Positions 4,739 to 63,841 of a stretch of DNA of 64,000 bases are shown in pieces. The first letter of the stretch is position 1. Every line of letters starts with the position of its first letter. Origin of the DNA: Leucoraja erinacea. Its lineage: Eukaryota. The stretch is taken from NCBI RefSeq assembly GCF_028641065.1, contig NC_073387.1, positions 21,886,001-21,950,000 on the forward strand, read 5' to 3'. Position numbers and translations under genes: made by a program. The notes beneath the pieces are model-generated. The model ran no database searches and had not been told where the DNA came from. It worked only from the letters and a program-made list of their open reading frames with translations.

Positions 4739-6063
4739 AGTGCCACCGCATTGGGAAGACCAAACATCTACATTACATTGAAAAAAAAAGCGCAAGCAGA
4801 TCACTGCTTTACCGGGAAGATGTTTTGGTCCTGTACAGTGCAAGGGAGTGGTACTGTACAAGAACCTTACATATTTTGTGTTTTCATGCGAAACTGCCAA
4901 CGGAAGGTGAGTGGTTACAAAGCGAGAACAGGGATTAGTGAAGGGGTGATATTTGCCAATTTCTGAACAGGCATGGAAGGGAAATATTTGCCCAGTGAAT
5001 TGCATTGAATGTGAAAACTAGTTAGTAGAATGGGACAAGCAGGGACAACCTGATCTCTTGCCGATTGCTGGGTACGTGAGCACTAAATTACAAAGAGCAA
5101 ATGGATAATGCGAACCTCGCGGTTATCTGCTGCTACATTCACACGTTTTTCCTCCTTATTCTGCTACTCACCAGTTCACCAAACAAGTGTGGTTTCACTT
5201 GTTCTCGGTGTGACAAACAGCCCCGTTTCTCGACATAGCATTTTACTGCTCCACATGTGTAGCCCACATGTTCAGTGGGTCTTGTGTACTACCTGGGATC
5301 CTTAGATAGGGCAGTCCCGTTTAGGCCATTGTTTCCGGCCTGCTATTGTCCGACTAAATTTATCTCCTCATACATCGAATCTATCGCCGGTCCCCCATCC
5401 CTGTCAGGGTTCATGCCATCCTCCATCCGAAAACACCTCACATGTTCTCCATCACTTTAACAACTTGCAGATTTTATGTCAATACTCATTTTTTTATTAT
5501 GGACGACGTCGCTTTGCACTTCCATTAAGCATCAGGAAGACATCAGAACTTTCCGTTTCATCTACGAATGGAGACTCAACCACTTCTCCCCAACTAACAA
5601 TATCCTTCACATTATTACGTGCATCTGCTGATTATTGTAAGTTGTATTTTGTACAACGAACTATTAATAATTAATATATAATGCATGGGAACGCAATCAG
5701 GAAACCTTTCAACGCAAATTTCTCTTATTAATACCTTGCCATGTAACTGGTAACAGGTACACAAATCTTTGAGTACATAACTAAATTACAACACATTTGT
5801 GCACATTATCATGTGACGAGCATAAAGACTGCCTTCAGAATTAATAGATGCATTTTCAAGATGTTTTCAATCCAGTTGCAGGAAATTTTATTTTGGACAA
5901 TTACAAATAGTTTACTCCCAATTACGCGAAAGAGACAATATGCAACAAGGGAATGTTTTCATTAATATTCCACTCGTACTGATTCATATTCCTGGGCAGA
6001 CAAAAATGGCTGCTTTAAAAATAAAATGGTATTCCTTAACACAAGCCATCAGCGGGATTTAGC

Positions 6064-8442
6064 TTAGGAGGTGGAAGCGCCGCATGGTTTCAAGAAGAGA
6101 AAATCGCTTTTCGCTGATTCTGGAGAAAGACAGGCCGAGTATTGATTAAGATCTGACACGCGGACTACACGTCCTGTCCCAGGATTGCGTAAAGTTTCCG
6201 CCATGGCAAGTCTTCCATTGAACGTGCCGTGAGAATTGCCAGGATTGTAGCAATAACTGCGGGAGTTATACGCTTGAATGTTATTTCTGTCTTGTTTACA
6301 CTTGATGCCAATCAACAGAACAATGATCAGAAGAAAGACAACGGACGTACAACTGAAAATCACGATTAAATAAACGTTTGGATCAGATAAATATTCTGGA
6401 TCCATCAATAAGTTGCTTCTTTCCACGATTCCTTCAGTGCTGTTCTCCAAAACTTTAATGTTCACTGTGACCGTGCTGGACAGGCTTGGCTGCCCATTGT
6501 CCTTCACCAAGATGACCAGACTTGTCTGACTTACAGCAGTGTCTGACTGCATGATGTTGCGCGCTGTTCTAATTTCACCGGATATTTGCCCAACTTTGTA
6601 CAAACTGGGATGGGTAGACTTCACCATTTGATAAACGAGCCGAGCGTTCTGACCAGAATCTGCATCAGTTGCCATTATCTTGGTGACCAAGTACCCTTGC
6701 CCCGCTGACCTTGGCACAGTCTCCACCGCTGCTGATCCACTATGTTCTGACGGCGAAACAATTACCGGCGCGTTGTCATTTTGATCCAAGATGATCACAT
6801 TCACCCTGGCGCTGCTGCTCAGCGGAGGCATCCCCGCGTCACGAGCTTGAACGTGGATCTGGAAGTTTTTGAGATTCTCATAGTCAAACGACCGCAGCGC
6901 ATAAATGGTACCGTTCATTGAGTTAATGGTTAGGTAGGTGGACGCTGGCGCGTTTATGACTTGATTCTCATGAAAAGTATAAGAAACACGCGAATTCTGG
7001 TCCAGATCGGGATCCGTTGCTGTTATTGTGAAAATGGACGCACCCGGAGCGTTATTCTCCATAACGTATATGTTGTAGGATGATTCAGCAAACCGAGGGG
7101 CGTTATCATTAATGTCTGAAATTGTAATACTCATGGTTATATTTGCGGACAGTGAAGGCGATCCCAAGTCCCAGGCGGAAATAAGTATTCTGTACTCAGA
7201 TATCGCTTCACGATCAAACATTTCGCTGGTAATTAATTTATAATGATCCGATGCTGTTTGTAGTTTAAAGGGTATGTTCCTTGGTACCGTGCAGCGAACA
7301 TGGCCGTTCTCTCCAGAATCACGATCCAAAACACTGATCAACGTTACTAAAGTTCCTGGCGGAGCATTTTCTGGGATTATGTTGGAAGCTGATGTCACCT
7401 TTATTTCGGGTGCATTGTCGTTCACGTCAATTACTTTGATAAGCACTTTGGAGTGCCCCGTCATTACAGGTGAGCCGTGGTCCACTACTTCAACATTGAG
7501 AGAATAACTGTTTGCTTCTTCAAAATCCAGCTGCCCGCCAACTCGAATCTCCCCGGTCTCTGGGTCTAAACTGAACAAATTACCGACTTTTCGCAAGGCA
7601 ACATCACTAAATGAATATACTATCTTTGCATTCTCTCCTTCGTCCAAATCATTTCCTTTGAGTTTCAACACCAAGGTACCATGCGGTGCGTTCTCACTTA
7701 TGCTGCCCCTGTAAATATCACGTTCGAAAACAGGTGGATTGTCATTGTTGTCCAATACAGTAATGAGAATTTGAGCTGTGCCTGTTCTTCGAGGGGTCCC
7801 ACCATCAGTCGCAGTCAGAAAGAGCTGAAATGATGATTGTAGCTCTCGGTCCAAAGATTTCTCCAACAGCAATTCGGCAATTATAATATCGTCCTCGGTT
7901 TTCTGTGTCCTCAGACTGAAGTACTCACTGGAACTGACTGTATAGGCGGTCACGGTATTTGTTCCAATGTCGGGATCATCCGCGCTCTCGAGACGGAAAC
8001 GTACACCGGGTGCATTCGCTTCCGATATCTGAAGGGCAATGCTGCTCTGCGGGAAAGTGGGCGCATTGTCATTTACATCACGAATCTCTATTTTTCCGCG
8101 GTACACCTCCAAGGGCTTTTCCAATATTATTTCGAAAGGAATAATGCACACATCCGCTTCACCGCAAATACGTTCTCTGTCGATTCTTTCACGAATAGAC
8201 AATATTCCATTGTCCAAACTGACCTTCATGTACCGCCCTCCGTCATCAGCGCCCAGTCGGAATTTGCGAGCTGACAATTGATGTACGTTCAGGCCCAGAT
8301 CTTGAGCGATATTCCCAACAAATGCTCCTTGCTTCATTTCCTCGGGAACAGAATAAATAAGTTGCCCGGAAATTAGACCGGGTGCACATATCGTAAACAT
8401 GCACAGAAACGCATTGAATGCAAACCTCGGTAGGAACGCCAT
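6064..8442 (-). CDS. Clustered protocadherin gene G2, intact (~792 aa)
   Basis: ORF 6064..8460 with likely ATG at 8442. Signal peptide, six EC repeats (DRE/DFE, DxD, DxNDN motifs), EC1 C-X5-C (ICGEADVC), TM YLIVIFSCTSVVFLLIIVLLIGI, tail CLSPESAKSDFLFLKP. Confidence 0.95.
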   Translation of the reverse strand: MAFLPRFAFNAFLCMFTICAPGLISGQLIYSVPEEMKQGAFVGNIAQDLGLNVHQLSARKFRLGADDGGRYMKVSLDNGILSIRERIDRERICGEADVCIIPFEIILEKPLEVYRGKIEIRDVNDNAPTFPQSSIALQISEANAPGVRFRLESADDPDIGTNTVTAYTVSSSEYFSLRTQKTEDDIIIAELLLEKSLDRELQSSFQLFLTATDGGTPRRTGTAQILITVLDNNDNPPVFERDIYRGSISENAPHGTLVLKLKGNDLDEGENAKIVYSFSDVALRKVGNLFSLDPETGEIRVGGQLDFEEANSYSLNVEVVDHGSPVMTGHSKVLIKVIDVNDNAPEIKVTSASNIIPENAPPGTLVTLISVLDRDSGENGHVRCTVPRNIPFKLQTASDHYKLITSEMFDREAISEYRILISAWDLGSPSLSANITMSITISDINDNAPRFAESSYNIYVMENNAPGASIFTITATDPDLDQNSRVSYTFHENQVINAPASTYLTINSMNGTIYALRSFDYENLKNFQIHVQARDAGMPPLSSSARVNVIILDQNDNAPVIVSPSEHSGSAAVETVPRSAGQGYLVTKIMATDADSGQNARLVYQMVKSTHPSLYKVGQISGEIRTARNIMQSDTAVSQTSLVILVKDNGQPSLSSTVTVNIKVLENSTEGIVERSNLLMDPEYLSDPNVYLIVIFSCTSVVFLLIIVLLIGIKCKQDRNNIQAYNSRSYCYNPGNSHGTFNGRLAMAETLRNPGTGRVVRVSDLNQYSACLSPESAKSDFLFLKPCGASTS

Positions 8443-8683: not shown

Positions 8684-8728
8684 CATTGGTAGACAGCGAC
8701 ACGACCAGTTCTTTTCAGCAACTGCAGC
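8684..8728 (-). promoter_or_regulatory. Pcdh promoter CSE, G2
   Basis: Plus strand CATTGGTAGACAGCGACACGACCAGTTCTTTTCAGCAACTGCAG, ~240 bp upstream of the ATG. Confidence 0.8.
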
Positions 8729-11115: not shown

Positions 11116-13211
11116 CTAGAAAAATATAAGATCAGAGAGATGAGTTTTAAAGCTGACCGGGTGTGGCGGACTAATCATTTCAGAAAAAAAAGAGAACATA
11201 GCATCTCGACTGTGATGTCAGTGTAGGTGGTGAAGACGGGAACAGATGAGTATGAAAAATGTACTTAATGGGTATGTGACGTGCAGGGAATTGGTGGAAA
11301 TGGAATTTATGGAAGGATGGAATTCGTTGTGATAAACATGGTGGCCAGCGTCGATGCGTTGTACCGACAGATCTGTTTCTATGTTCTACACCTCTATGCA
11401 AAATAGAATGAAGAACTAAGCCGACATTTTAACAGATGGAAGATGAGGCGCTGTTTTTCAAGCGTGCTCGATCTGGAGTCCTGCAAGTCAGAGACAAAAG
11501 CATCAGCTCATGCTGAAATTTTGAATTAAACTGAAAAGGAACCGGAAAATATGTATCTTTACTGCAGACGTGCTCTGCAAAGAATGGCGCAATCCTCTCA
11601 GTGTTTCAACACACTCGCCACATTGGGTAGACCAATACTTACATTGTATAGGGAGAAGAGAAAGCAAATCACTGCTTCACCGGGGATAATTTCACGTCCT
11701 GTATGGTGGAAGGGAATCTGTAAAATAACGAACGTGAAACGTTTTGTGGTTTCATGGAAAACTGTAAAGAACGGTCAGTGGTCGGTATGGTCAGAAGACC
11801 AGAATAGGGATCGATGAAGGAGTGATACATTTGAACTACGAATCAGGCAGGGTAGTATATATGTGCTCAGTAGCGAAATGTTCGAATTGTATTGAACGTG
11901 AAAGCTAGTGAGTGGAAGATGACAAACACCTACACTTTTTTTAAACGTTTCGTACTGTTTTATCAGGAACTGGATTCTTTTTTTATTGTTTTTATTTTAT
12001 GCGTGAAATGTTTAAGTTTTATGTGCGATGCTCCGGTATTCCCTGGGAAACGTCTTCTCATTTTGTACTGTACAACGTTGCTTTGCAATATGACAATAAA
12101 CGATTATGATGATGATGATGGTGTTAGCAGTACGTTACACATATCAAAAAGCACAATCTGAGCCTCATGGTTACGACTACATTCGCTCGTTTTCCTCTCC
12201 CTCTCAGAGATAAAACATTTATTCCATTAATACCTTCCTCGACTTCTGTTACTTCCAAACTATAGTCTTTTAACTCTTAGTCAGTTTGCCAAATTACCCG
12301 TTTCGCAACATAGAATGTTACTTTGACCCACATGTGCAGCACCGCATGTTCAGTGTTTCTCGTCTCAACTCACATGCTCCCCACCAAATAACAACTTGCA
12401 AATGTTTTGCCAATCCTCATTTTTACCATGAACGATGTCGCCTTGCATTTTCATTCCACATCAGGATATCAAGGCATTCAGTTTCATCTAAGAATAGAGG
12501 TTCAACCAGTTCACCTCAACCTATGCTGACCCCCACATGAATCAACTGGCAAAATTACTATCATCACCTGGATCCACTTGCTATCGGTTGCTCCAAGCCT
12601 TACTATCGACCATTTTCAACCAGCAACCTTCCTCTCCTCTCGTCACCAAGGGTTCGATACCAAACGTCTTATGCCAGTTTATCTCCACAGATGCTGCCTG
12701 ACTTTCTGATTTCCTCCAGCATGTTGAGCTCAAAATTCCAGCATCTGCAATCTCTTGTGATTCTAATATATGAGCATAATTATTTCCTTCGCCAGCTGAT
12801 TATTGTTATAGGTATTGTCTGTACCACAAACTATAAGCAATTATTCAAGAACATGTCGGTAGAATGCACCAGAGAAAACTTCAACCTAAATTCCACATAT
12901 TAGTACTTCAGCCACGTAAGTAGCTCCAGGTACCCTGGTCATTTGCGTAATTGGCTAAATGGCAACGCGGCTGTGCAACATTTTGCAGTGACAAGCTGAA
13001 ATACTGCCTTCGGAATTTAAAGATGCAATTTCATGATGTTTTCATTCCAGTTGCAGGAAATTTTATTTTGGACAATTACAACTTTACACCAATTTAAACG
13101 AAAAAGAGAAAAGATGCACCAAGAGAACGTTTTCTTAAATATTTCACTCGCACTGATTCACATCCTTCAGCAGAAATAAAATGGTCGCACACAAAATTAC
13201 CATTCCTTAAT

Positions 13212-15617
13212 CTACGTATCGACGTAATTTAGCATTGGTCTTGAGAGGTGGGAGCACCACATAGCTTCAGGAACAGAAAATCGCTTTTCGCTGACTCTGG
13301 AGACAGGCAGACCGAGCATTGATTCAGTTCTGGTCCTCGCACTACTCGGCCTGCCCCCAGGATAACGTAATGTTTCCTCCATCGCAGATATTCCATTAAA
13401 CGTGCCATGCGAAACCCCGCCGTTGTAACAATAACTGGGAGAGTTATACTCTTGGGTAATATTTCTGCCCTGTTTGTACTTGATACCAATCAACAGAATG
13501 ATGATCAGAAGAAAGACCACGGAAGTGCAACTGAAAATGACGATTAAATAAACGTTTGGATCAGAGAAATATTCTGGATTCTTCACCAAGGTGCTGCTTT
13601 CGCTGATTCCTTCAGTGCTGTTCTCCAAAACTCTAATGTTCATTGTAATTGTGCTGGACAGGCTTGGCTGCCCTTTGTCCCTAACCAAGATGATTAGAGT
13701 TTGTACAGCAGTGTCTGACTGGAAAACATTGCGCGCTGTTCTAACATCTCCGGAATGTTGTCCAACGTTGTACAAACCGGGGACGGTAGTTTTCACTATT
13801 TGATAAAAGAGCTGCGCGTTCTGACCAGAATCTGCATCAGTTGCCATTATCTTGCTGACCAAGTACCCTTGACCTGCTGACCGGGGTACGGTATCCACTG
13901 CTGCTGACCCACTTAGTTCTGAAGGTGAAATTATTACCGGCGCGTTGTCATTTTGATCCAGGATGACCACGTTCACCATGGCGCTGCTACTCAACGGAGG
14001 CACCCCGGCGTCACGGGCTTGAACATGGATCTGGAAGTTTTTTAGTTCCTCATAATCAAAGGAACGCAGTGCGTAAATAGTACCGTTAATTGAATTGATA
14101 GTGAGGTAAGTGGATACTGGCACATTGTGTATATGGTTATCGAGAAAGGAGAAGGAAATATAGGAATTTTGATCCAGATCAGGATCTGTTGCAGTTACTG
14201 TGGAAATGGACGCACCCGGAGCGTTGTTCTCCATTATATATATGTTGTAGGATGACTCTGTGAATTGTGGTTCGTTATCGTTAACGTCCGAAATTGCAAT
14301 CTGGATGGTTGTATTTGATGAGAGTGACGGCGACCCCAAGTCCCAGGCTGAAATAAGAATGTTATACTCAGGGATGGCTTCACGGTCCAACGTTTCACTC
14401 GTGGTTAATTTATAGTTGTTCGATACCTTTTGCAGTCGAAATGGGACGTTCTTTTGTCTTAACTCGCAACGTACTTGACCGTTCGCTCCAGAATCACGAT
14501 CCATCACATTAATCAGACATATGAAACTTCCTGGTGGCGCATTTTCCGGGATTTTGTTGCAAGGTGATGGTACCTTTATCTCAGGTGCGTTGTCGTTCAC
14601 ATCAGTGACTTTGATCAGTACTTTGGAGTGTCCTGTCATTGCAGGGGAACCGTGGTCCTGGGCTCGAATATCCAGAGAATAGCTGTTTACTTGTTCAAAA
14701 TCTAGAAGCCCTTTGACTCGAAGCTCCCCAGTAACTGGGTCTAAACTGAATAATTTTCGCGCTCTTATCAAAGAAATATCACTAAAACAATACGTCAGCT
14801 CCGAATTCAGTCCTTCGTCCAAATCATTTGCTTTGACTTTCAGCACCAACGTACCCCGCGGCGCGTTCTCACTTACGATGCCTCTGTAAATATCATGATC
14901 GAACACAGGTGGATTATCGTTGATTTCCAATACAGTAATGATAATCTGAGCTGTGGCTGATCTCTGAGGGGTGCCACCATCAGTCGCCGTAAACAAGAGT
15001 TGAAATGATGATTGCTGCTCTCGGTCCAAAGATTTCCCTAACAGCAACTCGGCAATCATAATACCGTCTTCGGCTCTCTGTGTTTTTAGAATAAAGTGCT
15101 CACTGGAGCTGATTGTGTAAGCGGCCACGGTATTTGTACCAATGTCGGGATCATCCGCCCCCTCGAGTCGGAAACGTACACCGGGCGCACTGGCTTCCGA
15201 TATCTGCAAGACAATGCTGCTCTGCGGGAAAGTGGGGGAATTGTCATTTACATCAAGAATCTCCAATTCCCCGTGATACACCTCCAAGGGGTTTTCCAAT
15301 ATTGTTTCGAAATGTACAGTACATTTATCATTCTGTCCACAAATACGATCCCGGTCGATTTTTTCACGAATAGACATTATTCCATTGTCCAAACTGACCT
15401 TCATGTACCGCCCTCCGTCATCAGAGCTCAGTCGGAATTTGCGAGCTGACAATTGCCGTACGTTGAGGCCCAAATCCACAGCGATATTCCCAACAAATGC
15501 CCCTTGCTCCATTTCCTCGGGAATGGAATAACGAATTTGCCCGGAGATAGGACCTGGTGCACATATCGCAAATATGCAAGCAAATGCTATGAGGGCAAAC
15601 CTCGGTACGTACGCCAT
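13212..15617 (-). CDS. Clustered protocadherin gene G3; +1 frameshift in the cytoplasmic tail (conserved stop at 13229)
   Basis: ORF 13212..15635, ATG at 15617; ectodomain and TM intact. One extra C in the C-run at ~13354-13358 moves the conserved tail (GRVVRGPELNQCSVCLSPESAKSDFLFLK) into another frame. Confidence 0.9.
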   Translation of the reverse strand: MAYVPRFALIAFACIFAICAPGPISGQIRYSIPEEMEQGAFVGNIAVDLGLNVRQLSARKFRLSSDDGGRYMKVSLDNGIMSIREKIDRDRICGQNDKCTVHFETILENPLEVYHGELEILDVNDNSPTFPQSSIVLQISEASAPGVRFRLEGADDPDIGTNTVAAYTISSSEHFILKTQRAEDGIMIAELLLGKSLDREQQSSFQLLFTATDGGTPQRSATAQIIITVLEINDNPPVFDHDIYRGIVSENAPRGTLVLKVKANDLDEGLNSELTYCFSDISLIRARKLFSLDPVTGELRVKGLLDFEQVNSYSLDIRAQDHGSPAMTGHSKVLIKVTDVNDNAPEIKVPSPCNKIPENAPPGSFICLINVMDRDSGANGQVRCELRQKNVPFRLQKVSNNYKLTTSETLDREAIPEYNILISAWDLGSPSLSSNTTIQIAISDVNDNEPQFTESSYNIYIMENNAPGASISTVTATDPDLDQNSYISFSFLDNHIHNVPVSTYLTINSINGTIYALRSFDYEELKNFQIHVQARDAGVPPLSSSAMVNVVILDQNDNAPVIISPSELSGSAAVDTVPRSAGQGYLVSKIMATDADSGQNAQLFYQIVKTTVPGLYNVGQHSGDVRTARNVFQSDTAVQTLIILVRDKGQPSLSSTITMNIRVLENSTEGISESSTLVKNPEYFSDPNVYLIVIFSCTSVVFLLIIILLIGIKYKQGRNITQEYNSPSYCYNGGVSHGTFNGISAMEETLRYPGGRPSSARTRTESMLGLPVSRVSEKRFSVPEAMWCSHLSRPMLNYVDT

Positions 15618-15858: not shown

Positions 15859-15903
15859 CATTGGTAGACAGCGACACGACCAGTCCTTTTCAACAACTGC
15901 AGC
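15859..15903 (-). promoter_or_regulatory. Pcdh promoter CSE, G3
   Basis: CATTGGTAGACAGCGACACGACCAGTCCTTTTCAACAACTGCAG on the plus strand. Confidence 0.8.
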
Positions 15904-18735: not shown

Positions 18736-20713
18736 CAGCTAAGTATGTAAAAAGTACTTAATGGGAAGGTGAATACATAGGGAATTGATGGATACGGAAT
18801 TAATGCAAGGGTGGAATTAATACAGATAAGCATGATGGTCGGCGTAGATGCGATGTAACGAATGGTTTGTTTATATGCCCAACACCTCGGCACACAACAG
18901 CTCGGCACACAAAAGCGCAAGACTAAACCGAAATGATAACATACAACAGTGGCTTGTCCGTATGGAAGATGAGACGCTATTTTTGAAACGTGCGTCTTTG
19001 CTTTACCCTTGTTCCAATCGTGCTGGAAATCAGAGAAAAAAAAGATTAGCTAGCGTGAAATTGTAAATGAAAATGTTAAACAAACGGGGAAAAAAACTGC
19101 TTAATTCCTGCAGATTGTACGCACGTGTGCTACAATGCAATGTTACAACCATCTTTCAGTGTCTCCAAAACAATGTTACCACAGTGGGAAGACCAAATGT
19201 TTACATTATATTGACGGAAGAGCAAGCAGGTCACTGCTTCACCGGGAAGAATTTGCCGTCCTTTACGCTGGAAGGGAATTGGTAAAAGAACGAAAGTTAC
19301 ACGTTTTGTGGTTTCATAGGAAACTGCCAAAGGATGGTGAATGGCCGGTAAGGTCGGATGACTAGAATAGGGACTGATGGATGAGTGGTACTTTTGAATT
19401 GTTAAACAGGCAGGGAAGGGGAATCTGTACACAGTGAAGGAATTTTGTTTGAATTGAGGTAATTTGCATTGAATGTGAACGTTTGTGAGTGGAAGATAAC
19501 ACATGGGGAAACCATGTTCTTGTTCCATCCAGAGGGGGTGGGTAGTGAGATGTTGGGAACCGATCCCTTCCTGATTTCCGGGCGCGTAGTAGCTTACGTA
19601 GAGCAAAAACACAATTTGAACCGCACGGTCACACCTCCTACTGCTTTCGCTCGTTTTTCTTCTCCCTTTCAGACACAATACATTTATTCCATTAATACAG
19701 ACCTGTTCCTCACCTGTTCAATTAAATGCAAACTAAAGTGGTTTTACTTGTTCCTCAGCACGCCAAACTGCCCGTTCCTCAACATAGAATGCTGCTGTTC
19801 CCCGCATGTGCAGCCCAACGTGCTCTGTGCTTCCAGTCCCTCTTCCCGTGCTCTCCACCATTTTAATAACGTACTTTTTTTTGCCAATCCTCATTTTTAC
19901 AATGGATGACGTCGCTTTGCATTTTTATTCCGCATCAGGATGACATCAAAGCTTTATGATTCATCTAAAAATGGAGACTCAGCCTGTGCTATCCTCCACA
20001 AGAAGCAACTGCCAAAAATCCCCTCCTCACCTGGACCCAACTATCACTTGATATAGTTTTCTCTAAGCCTTCCCCTCGTCCATTTCTAACAACAATGCAA
20101 CTTTCCTGTGGCCATGATGGGCTCGACACCAAACGTCATCTGCCTGTTTCAATCCACGGATGCTGCCTGACTCACTGAGTTCCTCCAGTCAATCGTGCTC
20201 ATAATTATAACTTATTTCATGAATTTCATATAAATGAGCTTAATTATTTCCTTCATATGTTGATTATTATTAAAGTGCCATGCATATTTGTTGTACCGCG
20301 AACTATCAACAATACTTCCAGAATGCATGGATACGGAGTCAATGAACTCTTCAAATCAACTTTCGCATGTTAGCACTTCAGCTAAGTAAGTGGATCCAGG
20401 TACCCAGATCATTTAAGCGATTGACTAAATGGCAAAACGTTTGTGCACTATCCAATGACAAGCAGAAAGACTGCCTTCAGAAATAAAATTTGCAATTTCA
20501 AGATGTTTTCATTGCAGTTTTATTTTATTTTTTTCCAATTACAACCGTACTCCCATTTAAGCGACAGAGAAAAAAATGCAACAAGGGTAGGTTTTCTAAA
20601 CAATGCACTCGCACTGATTCACCCCCCCCCCCCCCCCCTCCTCCCCTACCCCCCAGCAGCAATTAAATGGCCGCATACTAAATGGGATTCTTCAATCTAC
20701 GTACCAGTGTTAT

Positions 20714-23329: not shown

Positions 23330-23374
23330 CATTGGTAGACAGCGACACGACCAGTTCTTTTCAGCAACTGCAGC
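23330..23374 (-). promoter_or_regulatory. Pcdh promoter CSE, G4
   Basis: CATTGGTAGACAGCGACACGACCAGTTCTTTTCAGCAACTGCAG. Confidence 0.8.
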
Positions 23375-37984: not shown

Positions 37985-38018
<34 letters not shown>

Positions 38019-38529
38019 ACCACACTCAGATCATTGAGTTCTTCTAGTCAGTAGTGCTCACAATCTCAGCATCTGCCATCAATTCTCTTTCAGATATAGG
38101 AGCTTCATTATTTCCTTCAACTGTTGATTATTGTTATATGTTTTTTTTGTACCACGAACTAACAGCAATTCTTATAGAACGCGTGTGTACGCAATTAGAA
38201 AATTCTTCACCGCAACTTTCCCTTATTAATACCTAGTGGATCTAGGTATCCAGGCACTTTGCGTAATAAACTAAATGGCAACACGTTTATGCACATTATC
38301 CAGTGACAGAATGACTGCCTTCAGAAATAAAATATGCAATTTCAAAATGGTTTCATTCCCGTTTCAGGAATTTTTATTTTTGACAATTGTACTCCAATTT
38401 AAGCAATAGAGAAAAAACGCAAGAAGGGAATGTTTTCCTCAAATTTCACTCGCATCGATTCATATTACTGGGCAGAAAGAAAATGGCCGCATAAGAATAG
38501 GCATCCCTTAATCTACGTATCAGCGTAAT

Positions 38530-41780: not shown

Positions 41781-42208
41781 TGTTTCTCATTCACTTATTA
41801 TTTTCATTTCCGTCTTCTAAATTTGTTATTTAGTTATTTGCTCTGTACCTATCAGCACTTCATATGGAATATGCTGACGTCGAATTTTTTAATCGTATTT
41901 TTTACTTTAGGCAAGTAAATGGATTTAGCATCCTTAATGTGATTGACCCAGCAGCAATGTATATCATCTGTACGTCGTTCAAAAATAGGCAATATGATTT
42001 CTTCTGAGTTGACAGATACCTCTCAGACGATGGGCTTTATTTGCTAAAAGTTATATATTCGTTACCATTACAACAAATGCACAATTTAAAGGAAATCGAA
42101 AACATGCACAAACATTTTCATAAATATTTCACTCACGAGTTATTCATATGCCTCGAGAGTAAAATGACCCCAAATAAGAAGATGCGTCTTCCTAGAGCAT
42201 ACGCATCA

Positions 42209-49345: not shown

Positions 49346-50930
49346 GCTTAATTCCTGCAGATTATACCCACGTGTGCTACAATGCAATGGTACAACCATC
49401 TTTCAGCGTCTCCAAAACAGTGTTACCACAGTGGGAAGACCAAAGACTTACATTATATTGGCGGAAGAGCAAGCAGATCATTGCTTCACCGGGAAGAATT
49501 TGCCGTCCTGTACGCTGGAAGTAAAAATGTAATTGGTAAAAGAACGAAAGTTACACGTTTTATGGTTTCATTGGAAACTGGCAAAGGATGGTGAGTGGCC
49601 GGTAAGGTCGGATGACTAGGATAGGGACTGATAGATGAGTGGTACTTTTGAACTGCTAAACAGGCAGGGTAGGGGAATCTGTTCACAGTGACGGAATGTT
49701 GTTTAAATTGAGGTAATTTGTATTGAATGTGACCGTTTATGAGTGGAAGATAACACATGGGGAAACCATGTACTTGTTCCATCCAGAGGGGCCGGGTAGT
49801 GAGATGTTGGGAACCGATCCCTTCCTGATTACTGGGCGTGTTTGTAGTAGCTTACATAGAGCAAAAACACAATATGAACCGCACGGTTACACCTGCTACT
49901 ACTTTCGCTCGTTTTTCTCCTCCCTTTCAGACACAATTCATTTATTCCATTAATACTCACCTGTTCAATTAAATCCAAACTAAAGTGGTTTTACTTGTTC
50001 GTAAGCACGGCAAACTGTCCGTTCCTCAACATAGAATGCTGCTGTTCCCCGCATGTGCAGCCCAACGTGCGCTGTGTTTCCAGTCCCTCTTCCCGCGCTC
50101 TCCACCATTTTAATAACTTACTCTTTTTTTGCCAGTCCTCTTTTTTTACAATTGATGACGTCGCTTTGCATTTTTATTCCGCATCAGGATGACATCGAGG
50201 CTTTCTGATTCATCTACAAATGGAGACTCAGCCTGTGCTATCCTCCGCAATAAGCAACTGCCAAAAAACCCTTCCTCACCTGGACCCAACTACCACTTGA
50301 TATAATTTGTTCTAAGTCTTCCTCGTCCATTTCTAACAACAATGCAACTTTCCTGTGGTCATGATGGGCTCGATACCAAACGTCATCTGCCTGTTTCTCT
50401 CCACGGGTGCTGCCTGACTCACTGAGTTCCTCCAGTCAATCGTGCTCATAATTACAACTTCTTTCATGAATTTCATATAAATTAGCTTAATTATTTCCTT
50501 CATATGTTGATTATTATTAAAGTTCCATGCATATTTGTTGTACCAAGAACTATCAACAATCCGTCCAGAATGCATGGATACGGAGTCAATAAACTCTTCA
50601 ACGCAACTTTCGCATGTTAGCACTTCAGCTAAGTAAGTGGTTCCAGGTACCCAGATCATTTATGATTGACTAGATGGCAACACGTTTGTGCACATTATCC
50701 AGTGACAAGCAGAAGGACTGCCTTCAGAAATGAAATTAGCAATTTCAAGAAGTTTTCATTCCAGTTTTATTTTTTTCAATTACAACCGTACTCCCATTTA
50801 AGCGACAGAGAAAAACAATGCAACAAGGGTAAGTTTTCTAAACAGTGCACTCGCACTGATTCACATCCTCCAGCAGCAATAAAATGGCCGCATATAAATT
50901 GGCAATCTTCAATTTACCTATCAGTGTTAT

Positions 50931-53315
50931 TTAGCTTTGGGCTTGAGAGGTGGAAGCGTCGCGTGGCTTCAGGAAGAGAAAATCGCTTTTCGCTGACTCT
51001 GGAGACAGACAGACTGAGTATTGATTCAGTTCTGCCCCCCGGACTACGCGTCCCGTCCCAGGATAACACAATGTTTCCTCCATCGCTGGTCTTCCATTAA
51101 ACGTGCCGTGCGAAACCCCATGATTGTAACAATAACTAGGGGTGTTATACTCTTGGATAATATTTCTGTCCTGTTTACACTTGATGACAATCAACAGAAT
51201 GATGATCAGAAGAAAGACCACGGAAGTGCAACTGAAAATGACGATTAAATAAACGTTTGGATCAGATAAATATTCTGGCGTCTTCACCAAGGTACTGCTT
51301 TCGCTGATTCCTTCACTGCTGTTTCCCAAAACTCTGATGTTCATTGTAACTGTGCTGGACAGGCTTGGCTGCCCATTGTCCTTAACCAAGATGACTAGAG
51401 TTTGTAAAGCAGTATCTGACTGGAAAATATTGCGTGCTGTTCTGACTTCTCCGGAACGTTGTCCAACGTTGTACAAACCGGGGTCGGTAGATTTCACTAT
51501 CTGATAAAAGAGCCGTGCGTTCTGACCAGAATCTGCATCAGTTGCCATTATCTTGCTGACCAAGTACCCTTGACCCGCTGACCGGGGCACGGTATCCACT
51601 GCCGCCGATTCACTCAGTTCTGAAGGTGAAATGATTACCGGCGCGTTGTCATTTTGATCCAGGATGATCACATTCACCGTGACGCTGCTGCTCAACGGAG
51701 GCACCCCGGCGTCACGGGCCTGTACATGGATCTGGAAGTTCTTGAGTTCCTCATAGTCAAAGAAACGCAGCGCGTAAATAGTACCGTTCATTGAATTAAT
51801 GGAGAGGTAAGTGGACACTGGCATGTTTTGGATATGATTATCGAGAAAGGAGTAGGAAAGGTAGGAATTTTGATCCAGATCGTGATCTGTTGCAGTTACT
51901 GTGAAAATGGATACACCCGGAGCGTTATTCTCCATTACATATACGTTGTAGGATGACTCCGCGAATTGCGGTGCGTTGTCATTTACGTCCGAAATAGCAA
52001 TCTGGATGGTTTTATTTGATGTTAGAGAAGGCGACCCCAAGTCCCAGGCTGAAATTACAATGTTATACTCAGAGATCGCTTCACGGTCCAACGTTTCACT
52101 GGTGACTAATTTATAGTGGTTCGATGTCTTTTGCAGTCGAAATGGGACGTTCTTTTGTATCTCGCAACGCACTTGGCCGTTAGCTGCGGAATCACGATCC
52201 ATCACATAAATCTGGGATATGAAACTTCCTGATGGAGTATTTTCCTGGATTGTGTTGGAAGCTGATGTTACCTTTATCTCGGGTGCATTGTCGTTCACGT
52301 CAATGACTTTGATCAATATTTTGGAGTGTCCTGTCATTGCAGGGGAACCGTGGTCCTGGGCTCGAATATCGAGAGAATAGGTGTTTACTTCCTCAAAATC
52401 TAAAGGCCCTTGAACTCGAATCTCCCCAGTGCGTGGATCCAACCTGAATACATGTTGCACTGCTCGCAAAGCAACATCATTGAAACGATATGTCAGCTCC
52501 GCATTCAGTCCTTCGTCCAAATCATTCGCTTGCACTTTCAGCGTCAACGTACCCCGCGACGCGTTCTCGCTCACGCTGCTTCTGTAAATATCATGGTCGA
52601 ACACAGGTGGATTATCGTTCTGGTCGAATACCGTAATCAGAACCTGTGTCGTAGCTGATCTCTGAGGGGCCCCGCCGTCAAACGCAGTAAGCATGAGTTG
52701 AAATGATGATTGCATCTCTCGGTCCAAAGATTTCTCTAACACCAATTCGGCAATTATAATACCGTCTTCGGATTTCTGTGTTTCTAGACTAAAGTGCTCA
52801 TTAGAACTGATTGCATAGGCGGCCACGGTATTTGTACCAATGTCGGGATCATCCGCGCCCTCGAGTCGGAAACGTATCCCGGATACACTGGCTTCCGATA
52901 TCTGCAAGGCAATGCTGCTTTGCGGAAAAGTGGGGGAATTATCATTTACATCAAGAATCTCCAATTCGCCGTCAGACACCTCAAACGGATTTTCGAGTAT
53001 TGTTTCGAAATGTATAGCACATTGATCATTCTGTCCACAAATACGTTCCCGGTCGATTCTTTCACGAATAGACATGATTCCATTGTCCAAACTAACCTTC
53101 ATGTACCGCCCTCCGTCATCAGAGCTCAGCCGGAATTTGCGAGCTGACAGTTGCCGTACATTCAGGCCCAAATCCACAGCGATATTCCCAACAAATGCCC
53201 CTTGCTCCATTTCCTCGGGAATAGAATAACGAATTTGCCCGGAGATTAGTCCCGGTGCACAAATCGCAAATATGCAAGCAAACGCAGTGAAGGCAAACCT
53301 CGGTAGGTACGCCAT
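50931..53315 (-). CDS. Clustered protocadherin gene G8, intact (794 aa), duplicate of G5
   Basis: Full ORF from ATG 53315; six EC repeats, TM, tail ending STSQAQS*. Confidence 0.95.
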   Translation of the reverse strand: MAYLPRFAFTAFACIFAICAPGLISGQIRYSIPEEMEQGAFVGNIAVDLGLNVRQLSARKFRLSSDDGGRYMKVSLDNGIMSIRERIDRERICGQNDQCAIHFETILENPFEVSDGELEILDVNDNSPTFPQSSIALQISEASVSGIRFRLEGADDPDIGTNTVAAYAISSNEHFSLETQKSEDGIIIAELVLEKSLDREMQSSFQLMLTAFDGGAPQRSATTQVLITVFDQNDNPPVFDHDIYRSSVSENASRGTLTLKVQANDLDEGLNAELTYRFNDVALRAVQHVFRLDPRTGEIRVQGPLDFEEVNTYSLDIRAQDHGSPAMTGHSKILIKVIDVNDNAPEIKVTSASNTIQENTPSGSFISQIYVMDRDSAANGQVRCEIQKNVPFRLQKTSNHYKLVTSETLDREAISEYNIVISAWDLGSPSLTSNKTIQIAISDVNDNAPQFAESSYNVYVMENNAPGVSIFTVTATDHDLDQNSYLSYSFLDNHIQNMPVSTYLSINSMNGTIYALRFFDYEELKNFQIHVQARDAGVPPLSSSVTVNVIILDQNDNAPVIISPSELSESAAVDTVPRSAGQGYLVSKIMATDADSGQNARLFYQIVKSTDPGLYNVGQRSGEVRTARNIFQSDTALQTLVILVKDNGQPSLSSTVTMNIRVLGNSSEGISESSTLVKTPEYLSDPNVYLIVIFSCTSVVFLLIIILLIVIKCKQDRNIIQEYNTPSYCYNHGVSHGTFNGRPAMEETLCYPGTGRVVRGAELNQYSVCLSPESAKSDFLFLKPRDASTSQAQS

Positions 53316-53594: not shown

Positions 53595-55187
53595 TACAAT
53601 TCTTAAAGCTGTACTGCTCGCCTACACATTTGATGGTGTACAACCATAAAACGCCCTCTTTGAAAATAAACTTGAAGAATGTTTTTTTTTCATTTAACGT
53701 CGAAAATCACATCAGGCCCGTCGGAAGAGGGTTATCCCCAGAACGTAAACATGTTTTTTCAGTTCAGTCAAAATTCCACAACGAATAAATAAATGGCATC
53801 GTTATTTTTATGATGCAACATACCATATCGGATATGCAGTATTTGCTTACACATGTTTGACCCCTTACAATCACACCTTAGGGTAGTAAGAAAATATAAG
53901 AAGATAGCACAAAAAGCTAGAGTATAACTCACCGGGACGGGCAGCATCTCTGTTCATATAACGACTACATAATTTCCCTTCTTTGATAAGATTATTTCAT
54001 TAGCACTTTCCAAATTTTGGAGAAGGTGTTCGTGAAAATAATACTTTCAATTGACCAATTGTTGAACCAACTTCCTCTTTAAAGTTATTGCTGGAGAAAT
54101 GCATCGTCACGTCCAATACAAGCCGAGTTTATTGACTTGTGCATGCATAGGACGCAGAGGTACGGCTGCAATGTAAATCTTGCATGCAGCAGCTTAAAAG
54201 CACATAACTTGCTTGTTGTTGGAAACATCCATGGAAATGTTGTGATTTTTTGAATTCTTATTTAACATGAGATTCTATTTTTCTTTTTTCTATTTTTCGT
54301 GATTGGTTGTGTTACTGCAATTTGCAACTAAATTACTGAATTGCCCATTAATCTGCAGATTTGTTCTAATTTTTTTGCCAATCCTCATTTTTACAATGGG
54401 CGACGTCGCTTTGCATTTTCATTCCACATCAGGATGACATCAGGGCATTCTCGTTCATCTACAAATGGAGACTCAGCCAGTTCTCCTCAACCTGTGGTAT
54501 CATCCACAAGAAACAACTGCGAAAAATCCCCTCCTCACCTGGATCCAACTACCACTTGATACTGTTTGCTCTAAGCCTTCTCTATGCAGAACGGACCTCT
54601 CCACCAATCATGACGGGCTCCACACCAAACGTCATCTGTCTGTTTCTCTCCACAGGTGCTGCCAGACTCTCTGAGTTCCTCCAGCCAGTCGTCCTCACAA
54701 TGTCAGCATCAGGCATGAGTTGTGTTGCAAAAAAATGGGCTTAATTATTTCCTTCGCCTGTTGATTATTATTATATGTATATTTTGTGGCACGATCTATC
54801 AAAAATTCTTCTAGAATACATGGGTACCCAATCATTAAACTCTTCAACGCAACTTCCGCACATTAGTACTTTCATCCACGTAAATGGATCCAGGTACCCA
54901 AACCGTTACGTAATAGGTTAAATGGCAACGCGTTTGTGCGCATTATCCAGTGACAAACAGAAGGACTGCCTTCAGAAATAAAACTTGCAATTTCAAGATG
55001 TTTTCATTCCAGTTGCGGGACATTTTACTTTTTCAATTACAACCGTACTCCCATTTAAGCGATAGTGAAAAACGTGCAACAAGGGTAAGTTTTCTAAATA
55101 TTTCACTCGCACTGTTTCACATGCCCCGGCAGAAATAAAATGGCCGCATACAAAATTGGCATTCTTCAATCTACGCATCAGCGTAAT

Positions 55188-55737
55188 TTAACACTGACCT
55201 TGAGACCTTTAACACTACATGGCTTCAGTAAGAGAAAAATCGTTTTTCGCTGACTGGAGACAGACTTACCGAGTATTGATTCAGATCTGGCCCGCGGACT
55301 GCCCGCTCTGTCCAAGGATAGGGTAACATTTCCTTCATCGCAGATCTTCCATTAAACGTGCCGTGCGAAACCCCACGATTGTAACAGTAACTGGGGGAGT
55401 AATACTCTTGGATAATATTTCTGTCCTGTTTACACTTGAAGCCAATCAATAGAATGATGATCAGAAGGCAGACCACGAAAGTGCAACGGAAAATGACAAT
55501 TAAATAACCGTTTGGATCAGAGAAATATTCGTAATTCATCACCAAGGTACTTCTTTCGCTGATCCCTTCAGTGCTGTTTTCCAAAACTAATGTACATCGT
55601 AAATGTGCTGGACAGGCTTGGCTGTCCATTGTCCTTAAGCAAGATGACTAGAGTTTGTAAAGCAGTACCTGACTGCAAAATATTGCGCGCTGTTCTGACT
55701 TCTCCAGAATGTTGTCCAACGTTGTACAAACCGGGGT
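55188..55737 (-). pseudogene. Pcdh relic F2 (duplicate of F1, further truncated)
   Basis: ORF 55225..55629 gives the juxtamembrane/TM/tail peptide. Junction ACAAACCGGGGT|GTTCGTGAAC leads into spacer DNA. Confidence 0.9.
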
Positions 55738-60412: not shown

Positions 60413-61453
60413 CCAAGCTGCTAATTGCCTTTACTTTCGCTCGTTTTCTCCTCCCTTTCACACGTAATACATTATTCCATTCATACGTGGTCCTCGCCTG
60501 TTCCTTTACTTCCAGACTAAAGTGGTTTCAATTTGTCATCAGTGTGCCACACTGCCCGTTTCGCACATTCGCCCACTTGTGCAGCCCAACATGCTCAGTG
60601 TTTCTAGTCTCACAACACATACCCCCCACCACTTTAACAACTTGTACATTAATTGCAAATGCTGATTTTAACCATTGATAACGTCGCTTTGTCTTTCCTC
60701 TCCACATCAAGATGACAGGGGCTTTCCGATACATCCAAGAATGGTGATTCAGGCATTTTTCCTCAACCCAGGCTATCCTCAACAAAAATGAACTGCATAA
60801 AAAATCCCCTCCTGAACTGAATCCAACCACCACTTGATACTGTTTGCTGTAAGCATCCCCTCGTCTATTTCTACCAACGATGTTCTTCTCCTGAAGTCAC
60901 GAAGGGCTCGACATCAACCGCCATGTGCCTCTCCGCTCTCGTCCCCCCACTCAGATCATTGAGTTCTTCTAGTCAGTAGTGCTCACAATCTCAGCATCTG
61001 CCATCAATTCTCTTTCAGATATAGGAGCTTAATTATTTCCTTCAACTGTTGATTATTGTTATATGTATTTTTGTACCACGAACTAACAACAATTCTTATA
61101 GAACGCGTGGGTACGCAATCAGAAAATTCTTCACCGCAACTTTCCCTTATTAATACGTAGTGGACCCAGATATCCAGACACTTTGCGTAATAAACTAAAT
61201 GGCAACACGTTTATGCACATTATCCAGTGACAGAATGACTGCCTTCAGAAATAAAATATGCAATTTCAAAATGGTTTCATTCCCGTTTCAGGAATTTTTA
61301 TTTTTGACAATTGCACTCCAATTTAAGCAAAAGAGAAAAAACGCAAGAAGGGAATGTTTTCTTCAAATTTCACTCCTATTGATTCACATTACTGGGCAGA
61401 AAGAAAATGGCTGCATAAGAATAGGCATTCCTTAATCTACGTATCAGCGTAAT

Positions 61454-63841
61454 TTAGCATTGGGCTTGAGAGGTGGGTGCGCCACATGGCTTCAAGAAGA
61501 GAAAATCGGTTTTCGCTGACTCTGGAGAAAGACAAACCGAGTATTGATTCGGTTCTTGCACGCGGAGTACCCGGCCCGTCCCAGGATAGCGTAAAGTTTC
61601 CTCCAGAGCAGGTCTTCCACTAAACGTACCATGAGAACCCCCATCATTGTAAGAATAACTAGGCGAGTTATACTCTTGGATACTATGTCTGTCCTGTTTA
61701 CACTTGATACCAATCAATAGAATGATGATCAAAAGAAAGATCACGGAAGTGCAACTGAATATGACGATTAAATAAACGTTTGGATCAGAGAAATATTCTG
61801 GATTCTTCACTAAGGTACTGCTTTCGCTGATTCCTTCAGTGCTGTTCCACAACAATCTAATGTTGATTAGAACTGTGCTGGACAGGCTTGGCTGCCCATT
61901 GTCCTTAACCAAGATGACTAGAGTTTGTAAAGCATTATCTGACTGCAAAATATTGCGCGCTGTTCTGACTTCCCCGGAATGTTGTCCAATGTTATACAAC
62001 CCGGGTGCGGTAGATTTCATCATCTGATAAAAGAGCCGTGCGTTCTGACCAGAATCGGCATCAGTTGCCATTATCTTGGTGACCAAGTACCCTTGACCCG
62101 CTGTCTGGGGCACGACCTCCACTGTTGCTGAGCCAATTTGTTCTGAAGGTGAAACAATTACCGGCGCGTTGTCATTTTGATCCAGGATGATCACATTCAC
62201 CGTGGCGCTGCTGCTCAACGGAGGCACCCCGGCGTCACGGGCTTGAACATGGATTTGGAAGTTCTTGAGTTCCTCATAGTCAAAGGAACGCAGCGCGTAA
62301 ATAGTACCGTTCATTGTGTTAATAGTGAGGTAAGTGGACACTGGCAAGTTTTGGATATGATTATCGAGAAAGGAGTAGGAAACATGGGAATTTAGATCCA
62401 GATCAGGATCCATTGCAGTTACTGTGGAAACGGACGCACCCGCCGCGTTATTTTCCATTACATATACGTTGTAGGATGTCTCACTGAACTGTGGTGCGTT
62501 ATCATTAATGTCCGAAATTGAAATCTCGATGGTTTTATTTGTTGATAGTGACGGTGAACCCAAGTCCCAGGCTGAAACAAGAATGTCATACTCAGAGATG
62601 GCTTCACGATCCAACGTTTCACTGGTAGTTAGTTTATAGTGGTTCGATGTCCTTTGCAGTCGAAATGGGACGTTCTTTTGTATCTCGCAACGCACTTGAC
62701 CGTTCGCTCCTGAATCACGATCCATCACATTAATCAGGGATATGAAACTTCCTGGTGGCGCATTTTCCTGGATTTTGTTGGAAGCTGAAGTTACCTTTAT
62801 CTCAGGTGCATTGTCGTTCACATCAGTGACTTCGATCAGTACATTGGAGTGTCCTGTCATTGCAGGGGAACCGTGGTCCTGGGCTTGAATATCGAGAGAA
62901 TAGCTGTTAACGTCTTCAAAATCTAGTGGCTGTTGGACTCGAATCTCCCCGGTGCCTGGTTCCAAACTGAATACATTTTGCGCTCTTCGCAAAGCAACAT
63001 CACTAAAACGATATGTCAGGACCGCATTCAGTCCTTCGTCCAAATCAATTGCTTTGACTTTCAGCACCAACGTACCCCGCGGCGCGTTCTCACTTACGCT
63101 ACCTCTGTAAATATCATGGTCGAACACAGGTGGATTATCATTGTTATCGAATACAGTAATGAGAATCTGAGCTGTGCCCGATCTCTGAGGGGTCCCGCCG
63201 TCAGTCGCTGTAAGCAAGAGTTGAAATGATGATTGTAGTTCTCGGTCCAAAGATTTCTCCAAGAGCAATTCGACAATTATAATGCCGCTCTCGGTTTTCT
63301 GTGTTCTTAGGCTAAAGTGATCACTCGAACCGATTGTGTAGGCGGCCACGGTATTTGTACCAATGTCGGGATCATCCGCGCTCTCGACTCGGAAACGTGC
63401 ACCAGCAGATGCACTCGCTTCTGACATCTGCAAAGCAATGCTCCTCTGCGGGAAAGTGGGGGAATTGTCATTTACGTCAAGAATCTCCAATTCCCCTTCA
63501 TACACCTCCAAAGGGTTTTCCAGTATTATTTCGAAACGTATAGTACATTGATCATTCTGTCCACAAATACGTTCCCGGTCGATTCTTTCACGAATACTCA
63601 TGATTCCATTGTCCAAACTAACCTTCATGTATCGCCCTCCGCCATCGGAACTCAGTCGGAATTTGCGAGCTGATAATTGATGTACACTCAGGCTCAAATC
63701 CACAGCGATATTCCCAACAAATGCCTCTTCCTCCATTTCCTCGGGAATAGAATAGCGAATTTGCCCGGAGATCAGACCCGGTCGACATATCGCAAATATG
63801 CAAGCAAACACAGTGAAGGCAAACCTCGGTAGATACGCCAT
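61454..63841 (-). CDS. Clustered protocadherin gene G9, intact (795 aa)
   Basis: ORF 61454..63988; the paralog-equivalent ATG is 63841 (MAYLPRF). Six EC repeats, TM, tail ending PTSQAQC*. Its promoter lies beyond the window. Confidence 0.95.
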   Translation of the reverse strand: MAYLPRFAFTVFACIFAICRPGLISGQIRYSIPEEMEEEAFVGNIAVDLSLSVHQLSARKFRLSSDGGGRYMKVSLDNGIMSIRERIDRERICGQNDQCTIRFEIILENPLEVYEGELEILDVNDNSPTFPQRSIALQMSEASASAGARFRVESADDPDIGTNTVAAYTIGSSDHFSLRTQKTESGIIIVELLLEKSLDRELQSSFQLLLTATDGGTPQRSGTAQILITVFDNNDNPPVFDHDIYRGSVSENAPRGTLVLKVKAIDLDEGLNAVLTYRFSDVALRRAQNVFSLEPGTGEIRVQQPLDFEDVNSYSLDIQAQDHGSPAMTGHSNVLIEVTDVNDNAPEIKVTSASNKIQENAPPGSFISLINVMDRDSGANGQVRCEIQKNVPFRLQRTSNHYKLTTSETLDREAISEYDILVSAWDLGSPSLSTNKTIEISISDINDNAPQFSETSYNVYVMENNAAGASVSTVTAMDPDLDLNSHVSYSFLDNHIQNLPVSTYLTINTMNGTIYALRSFDYEELKNFQIHVQARDAGVPPLSSSATVNVIILDQNDNAPVIVSPSEQIGSATVEVVPQTAGQGYLVTKIMATDADSGQNARLFYQMMKSTAPGLYNIGQHSGEVRTARNILQSDNALQTLVILVKDNGQPSLSSTVLINIRLLWNSTEGISESSTLVKNPEYFSDPNVYLIVIFSCTSVIFLLIIILLIGIKCKQDRHSIQEYNSPSYSYNDGGSHGTFSGRPALEETLRYPGTGRVLRVQEPNQYSVCLSPESAKTDFLFLKPCGAPTSQAQC

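What the first reader, a model, noticed from the sequence alone, without database searches (positions are those of the whole stretch)
5887..63841. A Pcdh-beta-like array of self-terminating single-exon protocadherins in a probable cartilaginous fish
Seen: every gene whose 3' end is in the window reads through TM and tail to an in-exon stop at a homologous position, with no strong GTRAG donor that I can see before it. Each has minus-strand AATAAA ~150-190 nt downstream (plus-strand TTTATT at 5887, 13062, 20519, 26896, 38373, 42036, 50766, 61297). G7 has it even though its 3' flank is otherwise diverged, while both dead relics have AGTAAA instead (31151, 55024). Known: Pcdh alpha and gamma variable exons splice to shared constant exons; mammalian Pcdh-beta genes are single-exon. 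Inference: this is a recently expanded, CSE-driven, constant-exon-independent neuronal barcode subcluster with a PCDH10-like tail motif, possibly convergent on the beta design.
Basis: partly seen in the sequence, partly recalled or inferred. Interest (0 to 1): 0.75.

Follow-up and report, generated by a model that had tools for sequence, protein, structure and literature searches.

The report
Skate protocadherin-epsilon single-exon gene array
These tandem cell-adhesion genes of a skate belong to protocadherin-epsilon, a group already named in the elephant shark; one gene's counterpart in a related skate ends its RNA just past its own stop signal, so the genes likely work as stand-alone single exons and probably help neurons tell self from non-self, which makes this a new example of a known group.

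Summary
The window is a minus-strand array of nine protocadherin genes (five intact, three frameshifted, one cut by the window edge) and two 5'-truncated relics, most likely from little skate. All ten hexamers are at the stated places. The core claim holds: in a related skate, poly(A) tails start at 38348, 25 nt past the AATAAA at 38373, in 2 of 4 runs, with no joints seen. But the subcluster is not new. Seven window genes group with six elephant-shark Pcdh-epsilon proteins at 100/100 support, apart from nu, mu-like and beta-like rows. Epsilon proteins lack a constant region (0 of 6); nu proteins have one (11 of 11). The tail motif is not PCDH10-specific. The two relics are copies of each other, so their AGTAAA is one event, not two. 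The skate copies are recent and mosaic, with EC1-4 and EC5-tail from different paralog lineages. This scan reached the same epsilon reading before on three other genomes. Verdict: new member of a known kind; interest 0.27.

The parts
1..2072 (-). Pcdh-epsilon gene, 5' 690 codons (runs off the window)
2320..2337 (-). CGCT-box promoter element (CSE-like)
5887..5892 (-). AATAAA, 171 nt after the stop
6064..8442 (-). intact Pcdh-epsilon gene, 792 aa (stop four codons early)
8685..8702 (-). CGCT-box promoter element
13062..13067 (-). AATAAA, 161 nt after the homologous stop
13229..15617 (-). Pcdh-epsilon gene with +1 base at 13358 in a G run (altered tail, ORF 801 aa ending at 13212); lesion or assembly error unresolved
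15860..15877 (-). CGCT-box promoter element
20519..20529 (-). two overlapping AATAAA, 184 and 189 nt after the homologous stop
20714..23085 (-). Pcdh-epsilon gene with -1 at 22492 (stops after 247 codons); mosaic: EC1-5 like 15617/44591, EC6-tail like 53315/29445
23331..23348 (-). CGCT-box promoter element
26896..26901 (-). AATAAA, 159 nt after the stop
27061..29445 (-). intact Pcdh-epsilon gene, 794 aa
29681..29698 (-). CGCT-box promoter element
31151..31953 (-). 5'-truncated relic (part of EC6 to 3' flank) with AGTAAA at 31151; copy of the relic at 55735
38348..38348 (-). poly(A) site (after CA, before a T-rich stretch), seen in reads of a related skate
38373..38378 (-). AATAAA, 151 nt after the stop
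38530..40914 (-). intact Pcdh-epsilon gene, 794 aa; promoter lacks the exact CGCT element
42036..42041 (-). AATAAA, 167 nt after the homologous stop (G7)
42209..44591 (-). G7: Pcdh-epsilon gene with five single-base indels and the CGCT element deleted; EC1-5 95-99% like 15617, tail from another paralog class
50766..50771 (-). AATAAA, 159 nt after the stop
50931..53315 (-). intact Pcdh-epsilon gene, 794 aa
53551..53568 (-). CGCT-box promoter element
55024..55735 (-). 5'-truncated relic with AGTAAA at 55024
61297..61302 (-). AATAAA, 151 nt after the stop
61454..63841 (-). intact Pcdh-epsilon gene, 795 aa; mosaic: EC1-4 of one lineage, EC5-tail 94-98% like 40914; promoter outside the window

Best explanation
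This is part of a skate's Pcdh-epsilon subcluster, tandem protocadherin genes that likely work as single exons: the counterpart of one of them is polyadenylated 25 nt past its own AATAAA in a related skate, and the rest are inferred to do the same. Shown: each intact gene encodes signal peptide, six cadherin domains, a membrane segment and a tail of about 80 aa in one open frame; 6 of 8 visible promoters carry a CGCT element about 250-265 nt before the ATG; the genes group with elephant-shark epsilon; the skate copies are recent, mosaic duplicates. Inferred from mammalian clustered protocadherins: CTCF binds the CGCT element and each neuron switches on a few promoters by chance; the short-tailed proteins recognise their own kind through EC1-4 and pair side by side with constant-region-bearing nu or mu proteins that supply the shared intracellular signal. 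It works like Pcdh-beta but is probably not descended from it.
For: Tree of EC1-3: 7 window genes + 6 elephant-shark epsilon + 13 other elasmobranch short forms are one branch at 100/100 (100 SH-aLRT in the 69-row tree). Window+nu, window+mu-like and window+beta-like as clades are rejected (p-AU 3e-6, 4e-47, 6e-7), epsilon+beta-like at 0.022. Five intact proteins are 50-57% identical to six epsilon and 42-49% to six nu proteins. 0 of 6 epsilon and 11 of 11 nu proteins carry the nu constant region. Of 416 stored proteins, 121 have the epsilon-type tail motif, 125 a constant-region motif, 0 both; 113 of the 121 end within 46 aa of the motif. The same annotation does join nu-type exons to a constant region on a contig of the same length, so joined forms are found where they exist. 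Reads: T-tails at 38348 in X11 (5 reads) and X12 (4 reads); depth 0 below 38324 in 4 of 4 runs; no joints; genomic sequence there is CA then T-rich, not an A run. X11 reads lie at the 3' ends of three genes and hardly in their bodies.
Against: The reads come from a relative (138 of 2730 laid X11 reads were 99% alike or more), both poly(A) runs are from one study, and only one of eight sites was examined closely. Depth dips at 38701-38729 (X13 9.3/4.3, X17 2.3), where the donor-like site 38705 lies; it recovers to 17-22 downstream and no joint or loose end is listed there, but 15 of 26 loose ends were not shown, so minor splicing is not excluded. Protein evidence is gene-model evidence from 90%-cluster representatives. 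The flanking scaffold could not be searched, and no mu, delta or alpha constant region of a shark was in hand. The tree has no mammalian beta, alpha, delta or PCDH10; 'beta-like' and 'mu-like' are my labels. Gene 40914, whose counterpart is transcribed, lacks the exact CGCT element. Neuronal expression and chance promoter choice were not tested.
Confidence: 0.88

Rival explanations
1. Dual use: the exons are polyadenylated on their own but a notable share also splice to downstream mu or nu constant exons, through the G|GTACGT site in the tail or a cryptic donor.
For: Donor-like site before the stop in 3 of 8 genes; depth dip over 38705; nu-type constant exons lie on a contig of the same length; a ray gene model joins an epsilon-type unit directly to a mu-like unit, so the two are neighbours.
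Against: The site is absent in 5 of 8 genes; depth recovers past it; no joints or loose ends listed there; 0 of 121 epsilon-motif proteins carry a constant-region motif and the 8 longer ones share no common extension.
Confidence: 0.08
2. Epsilon and beta share one constant-exon-free ancestor, and lineage-wide homogenisation has hidden the kinship, so the likeness is inherited, not convergent.
For: Same design; recombination between paralogs is active here; all cartilaginous-fish rows group together (96/94), which homogenisation could also cause.
Against: Epsilon+beta-like as one clade is rejected at p-AU 0.022 (quick tree, three beta-like rows, one on a long branch). PMC2764143 (passages) says epsilon, mu and nu have no orthologues in bony vertebrates.
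Confidence: 0.12
3. A new skate-specific subcluster, or an expansion of the non-clustered PCDH10 short form.
For: Automatic names 'protocadherin-10-like' on many relatives; the window genes sit in a ray-and-skate branch without elephant-shark rows (100/100).
Against: That branch nests in the epsilon clade with shark rows as sisters; the same automatic name is given to nu-type proteins; the tail is Pfam Cadherin_C_2, found also in nu-type and lizard gamma proteins. No true PCDH10 was available for the tree.
Confidence: 0.03

Closest known systems
Pcdh-epsilon subcluster of elephant shark (GenBank ABV59322-25, ABV59327, ABV59332; Yu et al. 2008 PNAS 105:3819, not held, not read)
   Same: One clade at 100/100; same length class (796-820 aa), same tail motif, no constant region; a CGCT element was reported for the elephant-shark cluster (PMC2926608, passage).
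   Different: No one-to-one orthologues among the six epsilon rows in hand; tail ends 9-22 aa sooner after the motif; skate copies are recent and mosaic, whereas the elephant-shark cluster is reported to have little gene conversion (PMC2764143, passages).
Mammalian Pcdh-beta
   Same: Tandem single-exon genes without constant exons, own promoters with CGCT, own poly(A) signals (PMC3431597, PMC7811963, passages).
   Different: Separate branch from beta-like bird and snake rows; beta is reported absent from elephant shark (PMC2764143, passage).
Pcdh-nu (elephant shark, skate, sharks)
   Same: Same locus type and domain plan; nu-type skate proteins lie on a contig of the same length.
   Different: Nu exons join a constant region beginning KQPNADW and mostly have a different variable tail; separate clade (p-AU 3e-6).
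PCDH10 (non-clustered delta-2)
   Same: Similar short tail motif (recalled; no PCDH10 sequence was in hand).
   Different: The motif region is Pfam Cadherin_C_2, shared with nu-type and gamma proteins; the window genes are clustered, with CGCT promoters.

Membership tests
Pcdh-epsilon | Ectodomain groups with named elephant-shark epsilon proteins | tested here: met
   100/100; identities
Pcdh-epsilon | Complete protein in one exon, no constant region | tested here: met
   five intact ORFs; no constant-region hit in the window below E 0.4; poly(A) at 38348 in a relative. That this defines epsilon is recalled from Yu 2008 and backed by 0 of 6 epsilon proteins with a constant region
Pcdh-epsilon | Position between delta and mu in the cartilaginous-fish cluster (order recalled) | not testable with these tools
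   no genome held; only hints: nu-type proteins on a contig of the same length, an epsilon-to-mu-like fused ray model
clustered protocadherins | Six cadherin domains, TM and tail in one large exon, tandem same-strand array | tested here: met
clustered protocadherins | CGCT conserved element about 200 bp before the ATG | tested here: met
   6 of 8 visible promoters, about 250-265 nt upstream, none on the other strand; definition from PMC4978886 passages; CTCF binding not tested
clustered protocadherins | Chance, combinatorial expression in single neurons | not testable with these tools
   read laying gives no cell identity or tissue
Pcdh-beta | Single-exon genes without constant exons, own poly(A) signal | tested here: met
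Pcdh-beta | Descent from the beta clade of lobe-finned fishes and tetrapods | tested here: not met
   p-AU 6e-7 (window+beta-like) and 0.022 (epsilon+beta-like); beta-like rows are bird and snake units labelled by me
Pcdh-nu | Ectodomain in the nu clade and spliced to the KQPNADW constant region | tested here: not met
Pcdh-mu | Ectodomain in the mu clade and spliced to mu constant exons | tested here: inconclusive
   window+mu-like rejected, but no source-named mu protein was in hand
PCDH10 | Orthology to the single non-clustered PCDH10 gene | not tested
   no PCDH10 sequence retrieved; one search gave 10 weak unnamed hits, not used

The most novel reading that the evidence does not exclude
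Epsilon is a second, independent origin of the constant-exon-free protocadherin design, kept since the chimaera-shark split, and in skates it is now making new recognition codes by recombining EC1-4 modules onto other paralogs' EC5-tail-poly(A) modules, unlike the stable elephant-shark cluster.
Probability: 0.45. Interest if true: 0.5.

Novelty: new member of a known kind. Interest (0 to 1): 0.27.

Why it matters
The subcluster itself has been named since 2008, so this is not a new system. What the window adds is read-level support that an epsilon gene really ends at its own poly(A) site, which I did not find in print (searches; the 2008 paper could not be read), and evidence of recent module swapping among skate copies. 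If epsilon and beta lost constant exons independently, a tail-less class of recognition molecule would be a repeated solution in vertebrate neuronal codes, testable in skate embryos.

Tried and rejected
No genome is held, so the scaffold could not be searched for constant exons. Yu et al. 2008 is not held. The run search listed no holder on record as RNA; raw-read runs of the coded organism A were laid instead. The first lay (19.8 kb) was swamped by repeats: its listed joints and loose ends all lie in repeats, 902 loose ends and 19 joints unshown. One search returned mostly fused multi-gene models and served only as a source of epsilon names and tree units. One search (tail against 50% representatives) gave 10 weak hits and no PCDH10. 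One search failed on a script bug and was rerun. Rejected: relic AGTAAA as evidence of selection (one duplicated event; AGTAAA is a usable variant signal, recalled); internal priming at 38348 (no genomic A run); three X13 loose ends at 38534, 38556, 38573 as splice junctions (read by eye they are paralog tails or a G7-like 3' flank); donors after the stop (3 of 8 genes, 13-16 nt past it) cannot add a constant region in frame. Tree rows dropped: 25 of 94 units, 43 of 94, 58 of 94, chosen by hand to cut redundancy and remove broken units; 6 proteins gave no full unit; the two genes broken within EC1-3 were left out. No NRSE-like match with a pattern taken from PMC2926608. No structure or complex job was run.
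Full report
What is there. The minus strand holds nine protocadherin genes and two relics. Intact: ATG at 63841 (795 aa), 53315 (794), 40914 (794), 29445 (794), 8442 (792). Broken: 15617 (+1 base at 13358 in a G run, altered tail), 23085 (-1 at 22492, stop after 247 codons), 44591 = G7 (five single-base indels, stop after 122 codons). Gene 2072 runs off the window after 690 codons. The relics at 55735 and 31953 begin within EC6. The protein of 53315 is in the database on a contig of 60,429,722 bases, the same length as the contig of proteins named Leucoraja erinacea, so the window is most likely little skate. Pfam finds six cadherin domains and Cadherin_C_2, and no Cadherin_tail.

The observation. 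The flanks are homologous for hundreds of bases past the hexamer, so their agreement is largely inherited from duplication. G7's flank is the most diverged, still aligns, and has its hexamer at a different column. The relics lie in one duplicated block of 93.7% identity, so their AGTAAA counts once. No GTRAG lies before the stop in the eight genes, but a donor-like G|GTACGT does in 3 of 8 (61629, 42378, 38705, recalled matrix). An 18-base element with a CGCT core lies about 250-265 nt before the ATG in 6 of 8 visible promoters; it is deleted at 44591 and diverged at 40914. PMC4978886 (passages) defines the CSE as a CGCT box about 200 bp upstream and a CTCF site.

Which subcluster. The tail search returned elasmobranch proteins of about 790-800 aa and elephant-shark epsilon9; cluster look-ups gave epsilon4, 5, 6, 7, 14 and nu2-8, and a search with a shark constant region gave nu8, 9, 13, 15, 17 and six L. 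erinacea isoforms with that region on the 60.4-Mb contig. In a careful tree of EC1-3 (51 of 94 units), seven window genes, six epsilon and 13 other elasmobranch short forms make one branch at 100/100; nu, mu-like and beta-like rows lie outside (same in the 69-row tree). AU tests on 36 rows reject window+nu (3e-6), window+mu-like (4e-47), window+beta-like (6e-7) and, less firmly, epsilon+beta-like (0.022). 'Mu-like' and 'beta-like' are my labels (the latter from a recalled tail motif and one automatic name); no mammalian beta, alpha, delta or PCDH10 was in the tree.

Single exon or variable exon. None of six epsilon proteins and all eleven nu proteins carry the nu constant region. Among 416 stored proteins, 121 have the epsilon-type motif, 125 a constant-region motif, none both; 113 of the 121 end within 46 aa of the motif, and the other eight are elephant-shark automatic models or two-gene fusions with no shared extension. 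These are gene models, and the set is biased to cluster representatives. PMC2764143 (passages, section 8) lists constant exons for alpha, gamma, delta, mu and nu, not epsilon. That Yu et al. 2008 call epsilon constant-exon-free is my recollection; the paper is not held.

Reads. No indexed RNA holder was listed, but raw RNA runs of a coded organism A were. It is a relative, not the same species: 138 of 2730 laid X11 reads were 99% alike or more. On 25600-45400 the stranded runs X17 and X20 cover gene bodies from one direction only, as expected for minus-strand RNA, and the single-cell run X11 covers the 3' ends near 26896, 38373 and 42036 and hardly the bodies; the relic bin 30888-31548 has depth 0 in 3 of 4 runs and 0.23 in the fourth. 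On 38150-39000 at 85% likeness, T-tails begin at 38348 in X11 (5 reads) and X12 (4 reads), two samples of one study; the two bulk runs show no listed tail; depth is 0 below 38324 in 4 of 4 runs; there are no joints. The site is 25 nt past the hexamer, after CA and before a T-rich stretch, with no genomic A run. Against: depth dips over 38701-38729, where the donor-like site lies (X13 9.3/4.3 against 26-38/20-32 upstream and 17-22 downstream; X17 2.3 against 15-29 and 17-19). The recovery fits paralog divergence better than splicing, but 15 of 26 loose ends were not shown, so a minor spliced form remains possible. Bulk depth falls at the stop; three loose ends there read by eye as paralog tails or a G7-like flank.

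The tail motif. It lies in Pfam Cadherin_C_2, which also hits a nu-type and a lizard gamma protein. A catshark nu C-type exon (P0348) has TPESAKSDFTFLKP and still joins the constant region. So the motif is neither PCDH10-specific nor a sign of self-termination.

Expansion. Blocks 25.5-41 kb and 49.3-64 kb are about 93% identical, and a skate model outside the window (P0272) holds a further copy of the unit. The window genes fall in a ray-and-skate branch (100/100). Copies are mosaic: the nearest paralog changes along the gene, and neighbouring informative sites are less incompatible than shuffled ones (0.257 against 0.378 +/- 0.008, 0 of 1000 shuffles, 250 sites). An outgroup agrees: 63841 matches thorny-skate P0004 in EC1-4 (90-96%) but P0271 in EC5-6 (95-96%), while P0004 and P0271 are only 81-85% alike there. 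Rate variation or misassembly could contribute. Whether the frameshifts are real is open: most sit in or beside short base runs, NCBI lists a frame-corrected 'low quality' model with the same EC1-3 as 15617, and relative reads lack the G7 indels at 42395 (9 of 9 in X13, 0 of 1 in X17 and X20) and 43804 (3 of 3 in X17, 2 of 6 in X20), though these may come from paralogs.

Mechanism. Shown: one-exon coding, CGCT promoters, one poly(A) site in a relative. Inferred from mammals: CTCF-guided chance promoter choice (PMC4978886, PMC3431597, PMC7811963, passages), homophilic recognition through EC1-4 and side-by-side pairing with constant-region-bearing isoforms (recalled). It works like Pcdh-beta and is a member of Pcdh-epsilon.

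Novelty. Searches found no paper on the skate cluster or on epsilon 3' ends in the held library; listings only were seen for PMC12228417 and most others, and no supplements were opened. Three earlier unreviewed notes of this scan reached the epsilon reading on other genomes, after I had formed mine. Verdict: new member of a known kind, interest 0.27.

Noticed in passing
window 61454-63841, 38530-40914, 20714-23085, 42209-44591: Mosaic paralogs: EC1-4 and EC5-tail come from different lineages, with thorny-skate proteins as outgroup; contrasts with the low gene conversion reported for elephant shark.
   Followed up: partly
window 44850-44870 (upstream of 44591): A deletion of about 35 nt removes the CGCT element from G7's promoter, which is otherwise close to that of 23085.
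   Followed up: partly
window 40914-41500: Promoter of gene 40914 differs from the others beyond about 230 nt upstream and lacks the exact CGCT element, yet its counterpart is transcribed and polyadenylated in a relative.
   Followed up: no
window 46948-47961: Reverse-transcriptase (RVT_1) open frame of a LINE-like element on the minus strand.
   Followed up: no
window 33530-35510 and 36800-37500: Repeats that draw most RNA reads in all four runs, from both strands; related blocks recur at 57869-60400.
   Followed up: no
window 4000-4167; long G or C runs at 4250, 33755, 37987, 49210: An N gap and long single-base runs point to assembly weak spots, which bears on the single-base frameshifts.
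   Followed up: no
window 50917, 27051, 20704: Donor-like sites 13-16 nt after the stop in three genes; could only splice within the 3' untranslated region.
   Followed up: no
P0212, P0262, P0402: Shark nu-type proteins show at least two constant-region endings, and the nu C-type exon has an alternative short ending in some models.
   Followed up: no
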